44,696 nt of DNA from Escherichia phage Pandora71. Shown piece after piece: positions 15,673 to 16,352 of the stretch. Under the pieces are notes generated by a model. The model saw nothing but the letters and a program-made list of their open reading frames with translations, ran no database searches and was not told the DNA's origin. Numbering within the stretch: position 1 is the first letter of the stretch; every line of letters begins with the position of its first letter. A program made the position numbers and the translations under genes. Where the stretch lies: sequence record PV841870.1, one strand, 5' to 3'.

Positions 15673-16035
15673 ATGGCTAAAGCACCACTCTTCACACTTG
15701 ACCCTAAACCAACCTTTAAGCTGCCGATTGAGATCCCGCGCCCTGGTGAGAACGAACCCGGCAAGATGACGTTTACCGTCCGCCACCGCCCGATCGACGA
15801 GTTTTCGCAGACCATGCAGGATACTGAACGGAAGCTGTCGGAATATGACGACAATGACCCGGACGGCTTTAACGTTATGGTCGATGCCATCATGCACGTC
15901 GCTGAAGGCTGGAATCTGCCGGACGAATTTAACGCGGAGAACGTCCGCCGCCTGGTGGTCAACTATCCACGCGCGTTCGGAGTGTTCCACACGTCGTACT
16001 ATCTCGAACTGATGGGGTTGCGTGAAAAAAACTAA
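15673..16035 (+). CDS. tail assembly chaperone (lambda gpG-like)
   Basis: position before tape measure; ends at slippery A_AAA_AAC. Confidence 0.7.
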   Translation: MAKAPLFTLDPKPTFKLPIEIPRPGENEPGKMTFTVRHRPIDEFSQTMQDTERKLSEYDDNDPDGFNVMVDAIMHVAEGWNLPDEFNAENVRRLVVNYPRAFGVFHTSYYLELMGLREKN

Positions 16036-16352
16036 TTGAGGCGGCGCGACGCTTTTATGGCCCGCCGCCACCCTCCGAAGATTTAGCCGCAAGTTTATGG
16101 GGTGCGGCCCCCGAAGATGTTTGTCCGCCTGTTGCGCTATGGCCCGACAACGCTAAGGTAGTCGCAGTCTTCACAGATTGCTCCACGCAATGGCGCACCG
16201 GATTTTGTGGCGCATACGGCATCGACTACGGCGTGTTGGAGTGGTTATTTAAGATGCACGGCATCGAAAACGAGCAGCGCGCGTTTAAAGATATCAAGCT
16301 AATGGAACGAATAGCGCTTGATGAAATGGCGCAGCAGAACCCCGCACAATGA
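16029..16352 (+). CDS. frameshift extension of tail assembly chaperone (gpGT-like, -1 frame)
   Basis: open -1 frame from slippery heptamer at 16026-16032 to TGA 16350-16352 (about 107 codons). Confidence 0.6.
   Translation, partial: KLIEAARRFYGPPPPSEDLAASLWGAAPEDVCPPVALWPDNAKVVAVFTDCSTQWRTGFCGAYGIDYGVLEWLFKMHGIENEQRAFKDIKLMERIALDEMAQQNPAQ

What the first reader, a model, noticed from the sequence alone, without database searches (positions are those of the whole stretch)
16026..16352. Programmed -1 frameshift site in the tail assembly chaperone
The G-like ORF ends at TAA 16033-16035 immediately after the slippery heptamer A_AAA_AAC (16026-16032). The -1 frame stays open for ~107 codons to TGA 16350-16352, matching the conserved G/GT arrangement of long-tailed phages. 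The extension ends exactly where the GCGGGACA array begins.
Basis: partly seen in the sequence, partly recalled or inferred. Interest (0 to 1): 0.35.

Follow-up and report, generated by a model that had tools for sequence, protein, structure and literature searches.

The report
Tail chaperone G/GT frameshift site
This is an ordinary but real example of the programmed -1 ribosomal frameshift that long-tailed phages use to make a short and a long tail-assembly chaperone from one gene, here in an E. coli Dhillonvirus whose public relatives mostly leave it unannotated.

Summary
The window is a Dhillonvirus (HK578/SO-1-like E. coli siphophage).

- **G gene:** 15673-16035, 120 aa, a full-length match to Pfam Phage_TAC_4. 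It lies between the tail tube gene and the tape measure gene and ends ...GAA AAA AAC TAA.
- **Slip window:** The -1 frame is closed by TGA 16023-25 and opens at 16026. The in-phase heptamer A_AAA_AAC (16026-32) therefore fills the only place where a -1 shift can join the two frames.
- **T extension:** The -1 frame runs to TGA 16350-52 and encodes a full-length DUF1799 domain. It has no usable start codon. It is under purifying selection in that frame only (synonymous:non-synonymous 88:30, against 12:105 and 9:107 in the other frames).
- **Hairpin:** A hairpin at 16040-69 starts 7 nt after the heptamer. Its synonymous sites are frozen, and its arms co-vary across lineages.
- **Relatives:** 39 of 56 G homologues chosen without reference to the site end in -KN or -GN.

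Predicted products are G (13.9 kDa) and GT (226 aa, 25.8 kDa). This is a known kind of system. The same AAAAAAC-plus-stop arrangement is already published for phage Loki. No product or shift efficiency was measured here. Interest is low.

The parts
15660..15663 (+). Shine-Dalgarno-like GGAG, 9 nt upstream of the G start codon
   Evidence: Read directly from the sequence.
15673..16035 (+). Gene G: tail assembly chaperone, 120 aa, 13.9 kDa, made by standard decoding
16023..16025 (+). TGA in the -1 frame, the upstream limit of the window in which a -1 shift can give a fusion
   Evidence: the T frame is open exactly from 16026.
16026..16032 (+). Slippery heptamer A_AAA_AAC, with Lys AAA in the P site and Asn AAC in the A site
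   Evidence: It is in phase with G. It is invariant in 18 distinct Dhillonvirus sequences. The same heptamer or G_GGA_AAC is found in T1-like, Synechococcus and Pseudomonas relatives chosen by T-core similarity. 39 of 56 G homologues end in -KN or -GN.
16033..16035 (+). Zero-frame stop TAA, directly 3' of the heptamer
   Evidence: A stop sits directly after the heptamer in Sfin-3, AUS531phi, S-CBS1 and phiPMW. The same arrangement is described for phage Loki (PMC5313236).
16040..16069 (+). Candidate stimulatory RNA hairpin. The arms are GGCGGCG 16040-46 and CGCCGCC 16063-69, starting 7 nt after the heptamer.
   Evidence: The fold is -17.1 kcal/mol with z -2.0. 16024-16069 is invariant among 18 Dhillonvirus sequences except 16047 and 16049, which lie inside the loop. 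Only 1 of 12 third-codon positions varies against a background of 66% (P 6e-5). In relatives the post-site 50 nt fold better than control windows (P 6e-5), and the 5' arm matches its own downstream sequence better than that of other lineages (4 of 20000 permutations).
16032..16352 (+). T extension in the -1 frame: 106 codons plus TGA, encoding a DUF1799 domain
   Evidence: Pfam DUF1799 at 74.8 bits against a cut-off of 26, profile positions 1-80 of 80. phrog_680 at E 2e-30, and phrog_17368 spans both G and T. Variable sites by codon position in the -1 frame are 20/7/67, and synonymous:non-synonymous is 88:30. The AF2 model has pLDDT 93.6. No ATG/GTG/TTG ORF of 50 aa or more ends at this stop.
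15673..16352 (+). Predicted GT fusion: 226 aa, 25.8 kDa, junction ...GLREKN|LIEAARR...
   Evidence: Inferred from the parts above, with sizes. The protein has not been observed.

Best explanation
This is the G/GT tail-assembly-chaperone recoding site of a Dhillonvirus.

Most ribosomes translate G (15673-16035) and terminate at TAA 16033. A minority slip one base back on A_AAA_AAC (16026-32), helped by the hairpin that starts 7 nt downstream (16040-69). The adjacent stop codon may also help.

After the slip, the tRNAs for Lys and Asn re-pair with AAA and AAA. Decoding resumes at CUA 16032 and continues to TGA 16350. The result is a 226-aa protein with the G chaperone domain (Phage_TAC_4) joined to a C-terminal T domain (DUF1799).

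By analogy with lambda, G and the G part of GT coat the tape measure protein. The T part recruits the tail tube protein, and neither ends up in the virion.

- **Shown here:** the frames, the heptamer and its phase, coding selection in the -1 frame, family-wide conservation, and constraint on the hairpin.
- **Inferred:** that slippage occurs, its efficiency (probably a few percent), and the binding partners.
For: - **Anatomy:** The overlap window equals the heptamer, and T has no start codon.
- **Gene order and domains:** The order is tail terminator, tube, G, T, TMP. G and T are full-length Pfam matches, and phrog_17368 covers both halves in one profile.
- **Coding selection:** T-region variable sites are 20/7/67 by codon position in the -1 frame (P 1.6e-14). 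Synonymous:non-synonymous is 88:30, against 12:105 and 9:107 in the other frames.
- **Constraint at the RNA level:** 16024-16069 is almost invariant, including synonymous sites. The hairpin folds at -17.1 kcal/mol.
- **Relatives found without reference to the slip site:**
  - Sfin-3 and S-CBS1 have A_AAA_AAC followed by a stop. AUS531phi and phiPMW have G_GGA_AAC followed by a stop. T is in the -1 frame in all four.
  - 39 of 56 G representatives end in -KN or -GN.
  - 13 T ORFs found by HMMER that extend upstream of the junction carry [K/G]KL there.
- **Structure across relatives:** In 37 lineages the sequence after the site is more structured than control windows, and the arms co-vary.
- **Protein models:** Both domains give confident models, with pLDDT 92.1 and 93.6.
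- **Literature:** The G/GT system is reviewed in PMC5009743. AAAAAAC next to the chaperone stop is noted for phage Loki in PMC5313236. A G/T frameshift is noted for the related phage eiAU in PMC3025963.
Against: - No protein or reporter data exist for this phage or, as far as I found, for any Dhillonvirus.
- A_AAA_AAC is much less shift-prone in E. coli than A_AAA_AAG (PMC5009743).
- The hairpin is modest over a longer stretch: z is -0.66 over 65 nt and -1.0 over 105 nt. Only about half of the related lineages have a strong counterpart, and RNAalifold found no consensus structure.
- The 78 IMG/VR loci were all ascertained through the peptide KKLIEAAR, which includes the slip site. They cannot be counted as independent evidence that the heptamer is conserved.
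- Two homologues depart from the pattern. Klebsiella phage 1513 has GCA AAA GTT TAA, and phage 2725-N35 has A5 with T in an apparent +1 frame.
- None of the six Dhillonvirus GenBank records examined annotates a joined product.
Confidence: 0.9

Rival explanations
1. The fusion arises by transcriptional slippage. RNA polymerase adds one extra A on the A7 run (16025-16031), producing an mRNA subpopulation in which G and T are in frame.
For: The window has seven consecutive A residues. Adding one A gives the same frame change as a -1 ribosomal shift. Transcriptional slippage is used in bacteria and mobile elements (PMC5009743).
Against: The conserved element is the phased heptamer, not the run length. 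Many relatives have only A6 (CGAAAAAAC, GCAAAAAAC), and others have G_GGA_AAC with three A residues. Efficient bacterial slippage sites usually have runs of about 9 or more (my own knowledge). The constrained hairpin 7 nt downstream fits ribosomal frameshifting.
Confidence: 0.04
2. T is made as a separate protein by independent initiation inside the -1 frame. This is how the SO-1 record annotates gp16, starting at the ATT that corresponds to 16035.
For: The SO-1 record annotates a 104-aa gp16 starting 1 nt inside the G stop. In many distant relatives gene callers find an ATG near the start of T.
Against: In this window no ATG/GTG/TTG ORF of 50 aa or more ends at 16352. The first canonical starts lie deep inside the DUF1799 domain, as the 31-aa fragment annotated in SECphi18 shows. 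No Shine-Dalgarno sequence precedes ATT 16035. Independent initiation would not explain the conserved heptamer phase, the -KN or -GN ends of G homologues, or the KKL/GKL start of T homologues.
Confidence: 0.03
3. This rival has the same product as the best explanation but a different trigger. It is a single-tRNA slip coupled to termination: peptidyl-tRNA-Asn on AAC slips to AAA while the slowly decoded stop codon sits in the A site (a 'shifty stop'), instead of a tandem slip of two tRNAs. Its confidence is conditional on ribosomal frameshifting being correct, so it is not additive with the other entries.
For: A stop codon follows the heptamer directly here and in most sampled relatives. 39 of 56 G homologues end straight after K-N or G-N. 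The poor E. coli shifter AAC is nevertheless the conserved A-site codon. Klebsiella phage 1513 keeps only A_AAA_G next to its stop.
Against: The stop could simply mark where the G domain ends. Several relatives have the stop one or more codons later (L055, L073 and L075 at one codon, L045 at six codons). The 7-nt spacing to the hairpin is what tandem slippage on the heptamer would need.
Confidence: 0.2
4. The -1 open frame is a chance or decaying remnant and is not expressed.
For: An open frame of this length arises in 0.8% of shuffles. Several GenBank records leave the region unannotated.
Against: The frame gives a full-length DUF1799 match at E 6.5e-21. It shows strong third-position bias and a synonymous excess in that frame only. 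The AF2 model has pLDDT 93.6. 1150 phage records carry a homologue.
Confidence: 0.01

Closest known systems
Phage lambda G/GT -1 programmed frameshift (Levin, Hendrix & Casjens 1993; Xu, Hendrix & Duda 2004, 2013, 2014)
   Same: The gene order is the same: tube gene, G, T, tape measure gene. T is in the -1 frame with no start of its own. A phased heptamer lies near the 3' end of G. Two products are expected, with the long one rare.
   Different: There is no detectable sequence relationship. Lambda G is Phage_TAC_2 and lambda T is Phage_tail_T. BLASTP of the two G proteins gives E 5, and hhalign of the T-core alignment against lambda T gives probability 0.3%. Lambda uses G_GGA_AAG several codons before the G stop. 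This phage uses A_AAA_AAC with the stop directly adjacent and a hairpin 7 nt downstream.
Acinetobacter phage vB_AbaS_Loki gp12/gp13 (PMC5313236)
   Same: [quoted passage not shown]
   Different: It has a different host and genus. I did not test whether Loki gp12/gp13 belong to Phage_TAC_4/DUF1799. That case is also a prediction only.
T1-like phages (Drexlerviridae, e.g. Shigella phage Sfin-3) and other carriers of Phage_TAC_4 + DUF1799
   Same: They carry homologous G and T domains. Sfin-3 has the same A_AAA_AAC TAA junction, with T in the -1 frame starting KKL.
   Different: T identity is about 40%. T ends next to the tape measure gene, whereas here a 380-nt repeat-rich gap follows T. Some members have variant sites: G_GGA_AAC, or no canonical heptamer in Webervirus.
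E. coli dnaX -1 frameshift (A_AAA_AAG with an upstream SD and a downstream hairpin)
   Same: It is also an A-rich heptamer decoded by tRNA-Lys in the P site, with a downstream stem-loop at a similar spacing.
   Different: The A-site codon here is AAC (Asn), which is far less shifty in E. coli. No clear upstream SD-like stimulator is present; only the Gly codon GGN lies 9-11 nt upstream. The expected efficiency is low, not about 50%.

Membership tests
G/GT tail-assembly-chaperone frameshift of long-tailed phages (Xu, Hendrix & Duda 2004) | Two ORFs lie between the major tail (tube) gene and the tape measure gene | tested here: met
   The tube gene is 14878-15603 (Phage_tail_3), G is 15673-16035, T runs to 16352, and the TMP gene is 16733-19375 (TMP_2, Tape_meas_lam_C).
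G/GT tail-assembly-chaperone frameshift of long-tailed phages (Xu, Hendrix & Duda 2004) | The second ORF overlaps the end of the first in another frame and lacks its own start | tested here: met
   The -1 frame is open from 16026 to 16349. No ATG/GTG/TTG ORF of 50 aa or more ends at 16352.
G/GT tail-assembly-chaperone frameshift of long-tailed phages (Xu, Hendrix & Duda 2004) | An in-phase slippery sequence lies within the overlap | tested here: met
   A_AAA_AAC at 16026-32 exactly fills the 7-nt window between the -1-frame TGA and the zero-frame TAA.
G/GT tail-assembly-chaperone frameshift of long-tailed phages (Xu, Hendrix & Duda 2004) | The arrangement is conserved in relatives, and the extension is selected as coding | tested here: met
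   codon-position and synonymous/non-synonymous counts; relatives chosen without reference to the slip site.
G/GT tail-assembly-chaperone frameshift of long-tailed phages (Xu, Hendrix & Duda 2004) | Both G and GT proteins are made at a fixed ratio, both are required for tail assembly, and both are absent from virions | not testable with these tools
   This needs proteomics, reporter assays and genetics.
G/GT tail-assembly-chaperone frameshift of long-tailed phages (Xu, Hendrix & Duda 2004) | G binds the tape measure protein, and T binds the major tail protein | not testable with these tools
   Inferred from lambda only (PMC5009743).
Pfam Phage_TAC_4 (PF08748) | Score above the gathering threshold over the whole domain | tested here: met
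   83.9 bits against 21.1, profile positions 1-124 of 124.
Pfam DUF1799 (PF08809) | Score above the gathering threshold over the whole domain | tested here: met
   74.8 bits against 26, profile positions 1-80 of 80, on the -1-frame translation.
Lambda G / T sequence families (Phage_TAC_2 PF06894, Phage_tail_T PF06223) | Detectable sequence or profile similarity to lambda gpG and gpT | tested here: not met
   There is no Pfam hit to these families. BLASTP gives E 5, and hhalign gives probability 0.3%.
TAC fold (HK97 gp13 2OB9, YqbN 3KLU, Rbstp2171 3FGX) | The G domain adopts the chaperone fold | tested here: inconclusive
Transcriptional slippage sites | A long homopolymer run (about 9 or more A/T) conserved as a run | tested here: not met
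   The run is A7 here, A6 in many relatives and A3 in the G_GGA_AAC relatives.
-1 PRF with a downstream stimulatory structure | A stable stem-loop or pseudoknot starts 5-9 nt after the heptamer and is under selection | tested here: met
   The hairpin is at 16040-69 with a 7-nt spacer and folds at -17.1 kcal/mol. Synonymous variation is suppressed. Excess structure and arm co-variation appear across lineages. Its stimulatory effect itself was not tested.

The most novel reading that the evidence does not exclude
The whole cassette may act as one module. It consists of X_XXA_AAC, an immediately adjacent stop codon, a 7-nt spacer and a GC-rich hairpin, and it is shared across the Phage_TAC_4/DUF1799 family.

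In this reading the shift is coupled to termination. The stop codon, and possibly the queuosine-modified tRNA-Asn, are functional parts that set the G:GT ratio. That would explain why bacteria-infecting phages keep an A-site codon (AAC) that is a poor shifter in E. coli.

It would also make DUF1799 the general T domain of a very large set of siphophages (1150 phage records).
Probability: 0.2. Interest if true: 0.4.

Novelty: new member of a known kind. Interest (0 to 1): 0.15.

Why it matters
The main value is for annotation. None of the six Dhillonvirus GenBank records I opened joins G and T. Several cut the T region into small 'hypothetical proteins' or leave it empty, and PHROGs labels both halves 'tail length tape measure protein'.

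Two practical gains follow.
- Recognising DUF1799 as the frameshift-encoded T domain that partners Phage_TAC_4 would correct more than a thousand phage records.
- The signature (G ending in -KN or -GN plus a stop, and T beginning KKL or GKL) could be used directly by frameshift predictors.

Biologically it adds nothing unexpected to the G/GT paradigm.

Tried and rejected
- **IMG/VR scan with the T peptide.** It gave 78 loci, all with AAAAAAC. I then saw that all had been found through the pattern KKLIEAAR, which contains the slip site. I do not use them as evidence that the heptamer is conserved, only for RNA-structure statistics.
- **Scan with a T-core alignment lacking the junction.** I replaced it with tblastn of the T core against phage records and HMMER against 1.84 billion representatives.
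- **Word-indexed protein search with the fusion.** It returned only 3 proteins.
- **RNAalifold on 20 post-site sequences.** It found no consensus structure because the 3' arms are not in register. I replaced it with MFE-versus-control and arm-permutation tests.
- **Rfam.** No frameshift element was found, only a sub-threshold SraG hit.
- **PDB by sequence.** Nothing was found.
- **In-frame natural fusion P0011.** It sits on an 811-bp contig of coverage 2.6, so I gave it little weight.
- **An upstream SD-like stimulator as in dnaX.** Only the Gly codon GGN lies 9-11 nt upstream, and its third base varies. I do not claim it.
- **One literature search.** It was badly framed and returned nothing useful.

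Full report
**What the window is.** Megablast of 14800-17000 finds 158 phage records, 150 of them at 90-95% identity. Almost all are Dhillonvirus, the HK578/SO-1-like E. coli siphophages. The local gene order follows from ORF listing and Pfam:
- tail terminator, 14395-14817 (Phage_tail_terminator_5)
- tail tube protein, 14878-15603 (Phage_tail_3)
- the ORF in question, 15673-16035
- tape measure protein, 16733-19375 (TMP_2, Tape_meas_lam_C)

**Checking the observation.**
- The sequence around the site reads ...CGT GAA AAA AAC TAA TTG AGG... in the frame of the ORF.
- The ORF starts at ATG 15673, with GGAG 9 nt upstream. It encodes 120 aa ending ...GLREKN.
- The heptamer A_AAA_AAC lies at 16026-16032 in the X_XXY_YYZ phase, and TAA is at 16033-35.
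- The -1 frame carries its own stop, TGA 16023-25, directly before the heptamer. It then stays open for 108 codons to TGA 16350-52.
- So the only place where a -1 shift can join the two frames is the heptamer itself.
- The first GCGGGACA unit begins at 16354.

**Is it more than chance?**
- AAAAAAC occurs three times in the whole window on both strands, against 7.8 expected.
- In-phase X_XXY_YYZ heptamers occur about once per 462 codons of long ORFs.
- An open frame of this length arises in 0.8% of shuffles.

These numbers are only suggestive. The decisive evidence is below.

**The two reading frames encode two real domains.**
- G is a full-length match to Pfam Phage_TAC_4, 'phage tail assembly chaperone' (83.9 bits against a cut-off of 21.1).
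- The -1 translation is a full-length match to DUF1799 (74.8 bits against 26).
- In PHROGs, phrog_17368 (213 positions) matches G at positions 1-107 and T at positions 147-212. It is therefore a family built from joined proteins.
- AlphaFold models built on HMMER-derived alignments are confident for both, with pLDDT 92.1 and 93.6.
- The T model has no convincing match in the PDB.

**T cannot be made on its own here.** No ATG/GTG/TTG ORF of 50 aa or more ends at 16352. The records that annotate pieces of the region use a 31-aa fragment (SECphi18) or an ATT start one base inside the G stop (SO-1 gp16). No Shine-Dalgarno sequence precedes that ATT.

**Selection in close relatives.** I compared 18 distinct Dhillonvirus sequences.
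- In G, variable sites by codon position are 10/6/77.
- In the T region they are 20/7/67 when phased in the -1 frame (P 1.6e-14).
- Distinct codon variants are 88 synonymous to 30 non-synonymous in the -1 frame. In the other two frames the counts are 12:105 and 9:107.
- The extension is therefore translated in the -1 frame and is under purifying selection.

**A constrained RNA element after the site.**
- In the same alignment, 16024-16069 is invariant except at 16047 and 16049.
- Only 1 of 12 third-codon positions between the heptamer and 16067 varies, against a background of 66% (P 6e-5).
- This stretch is not dual-coding, because the zero frame has already terminated.
- It coincides exactly with a hairpin. 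GGCGGCG 16040-46 pairs with CGCCGCC 16063-69, at -17.1 kcal/mol and z -2.0. The hairpin starts 7 nt after the heptamer, and the two variable positions lie inside the loop.
- Over longer stretches the fold is not unusual: z is -0.66 over 65 nt and -1.0 over 105 nt.

I then looked at 37 related lineages that are less than 80% identical over the 60 nt after the site.
- The 50 nt after the site fold at -19.1 kcal/mol on average. Control windows inside the same T ORFs average -14.1 (Wilcoxon P 6e-5).
- The arms differ between lineages, for example GCCGCGCGC/GCGCGCGGC, GGCCGCCAG/CTGGCGGCC and GCGCCGCUG/CGGCGGCGC.
- The 10-nt 5' arm pairs better with its own downstream sequence than with that of other lineages. 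Only 4 of 20000 permutations reach the observed mean.
- About half of the lineages have a strong hairpin. It is common but not universal.
- RNAalifold on an ungapped alignment found nothing, because loop lengths differ.

**Distant relatives, and an ascertainment trap.** The first IMG/VR scan returned 78 loci, all carrying AAAAAAC followed by a stop and by KKLIEAAR. They had been found through that very peptide, so I do not count them for heptamer conservation. Three samples chosen without reference to the slip site were used instead.

*Sample 1: tblastn with the T core.* It hits 1150 phage records, including T1-like Drexlerviridae, Webervirus, and Pseudomonas, Ralstonia and Synechococcus phages. 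I examined six.

| Phage | Junction | T frame |
|---|---|---|
| Sfin-3 | A_AAA_AAC TAA | -1 |
| S-CBS1 | A_AAA_AAC TGA | -1 |
| AUS531phi | G_GGA_AAC TGA | -1 |
| phiPMW | G_GGA_AAC TAA | -1 |
| Klebsiella phage 1513 | GCA AAA GTT TAA (no canonical heptamer) | -1 |
| 2725-N35 | A5 run | apparent +1 (possibly a homopolymer sequencing error) |

*Sample 2: HMMER of the fusion against 1.84 billion representatives.* It gives 1045 hits. Of the best 150 listed, all but one cover either G or T alone. Of 56 G-type representatives, 32 end in -KN and 7 in -GN. That is what X_XXA_AAC followed by a stop predicts.

*Sample 3: T-type ORFs.* The 13 that extend upstream of the junction carry KKL or GKL there.

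One 206-aa in-frame TAC_4+DUF1799 protein exists (P0011), but on an 811-bp contig of coverage 2.6. I give it little weight.

**Mechanism.**
- The best-supported reading is ribosomal -1 frameshifting on A_AAA_AAC.
- tRNA-Lys and tRNA-Asn re-pair on AAA and AAA, and decoding resumes at CUA 16032.
- The predicted GT protein is 226 aa and 25.8 kDa, with junction ...REKN|LIEAARR.
- In E. coli, A_AAA_AAC is much less shift-prone than A_AAA_AAG (PMC5009743).
- That suits a system in which the long product must be rare; lambda's G:GT ratio is about 30:1 in the same review.
- The hairpin with its 7-nt spacer is a plausible stimulator.
- The directly adjacent stop codon is conserved in most relatives. 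It may add a termination pause, but that is untested.
- Transcriptional slippage on the A7 run is unlikely to be the general mechanism. Relatives keep the phased heptamer with only A6, or use G_GGA_AAC.

**Comparison with what is known.**
- The arrangement works like lambda G/GT, but it is not a sequence relative of it. Lambda G and T belong to Phage_TAC_2 and Phage_tail_T. Direct and profile comparisons are negative. This is the usual situation for this system, which is conserved in position and recoding and not in sequence (PMC5009743).
- The specific layout, AAAAAAC directly next to the chaperone stop, has already been described for Acinetobacter phage Loki (PMC5313236).
- A G/T frameshift was noted for the related Edwardsiella phage eiAU (PMC3025963).
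- Among the Dhillonvirus records I opened (SO-1, SECphi18, jat, McMelon, UDS3lw, CS16), none annotates a joined product.
- The single paper in the searchable library that mentions DUF1799 lists it as a separate protein (PMC9658991).

**Verdict.** The finding is real, correctly located and correctly interpreted. It is a new, unannotated member of a thoroughly known kind. What remains unshown is the protein product, the shift efficiency, and the roles of the hairpin and the stop codon. Interest is low.

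Noticed in passing
window 16353-16732 and 44424-44526: GCGGGACA units occur 16 times against 2.06 expected, in two clusters. The first fills a 380-nt non-coding gap between the T stop and the tape measure start, and contains a 38-nt unit (AAGCGGGACAGGCGGGACGTCCCGTTTTGTCCCGC) duplicated 79 nt apart. The SO-1 GenBank record calls it 'region A', similar to a 'region B'. In the non-Dhillonvirus relatives I opened, T ends within about 40 nt of the tape measure start or overlaps it, so the gap looks specific to this genus.
   Followed up: partly
window 15634-15657: A strong intrinsic-terminator-like hairpin (GGGGCC AGCAC GGCCCC followed by TTTTTTATT) lies between the tail tube gene and G. 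The CS16 record also annotates a terminator here. It probably lowers expression of the chaperone and later tail genes relative to the tube protein.
   Followed up: no
window 16614-16664: A very stable long hairpin (-32.2 kcal/mol, z -3.9, 0 of 200 shuffles as stable) lies just upstream of the tape measure ribosome-binding site, followed by a U-rich stretch. No tRNA and no Rfam match was found.
   Followed up: partly
L087 (Klebsiella phage 1513) about 1050-1070; L083 (E. coli phage 2725-N35) about 1160-1210: Two homologous G/T junctions depart from the rule. The Webervirus has GCA AAA GTT TAA with T in the -1 frame, so no heptamer and perhaps a single-tRNA A_AAA_G slip. Phage 2725-N35 has an A5 run that puts T in an apparent +1 frame, which may be a homopolymer sequencing error.
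   Followed up: no
L088 173-793 (protein P0011): A single 206-aa ORF carries both Phage_TAC_4 and DUF1799 in frame, with the junction region shortened and no KKL. It sits on an 811-bp metagenome contig of coverage 2.6, so it may be an assembly artefact.
   Followed up: partly
PHROGs families phrog_569, phrog_680 and phrog_17368: These families hold the G and T chaperone domains, yet their functional label is 'tail length tape measure protein'. This mislabel propagates into phage records such as McMelon, Klebsiella phage 1513 and phiPMW.
   Followed up: no
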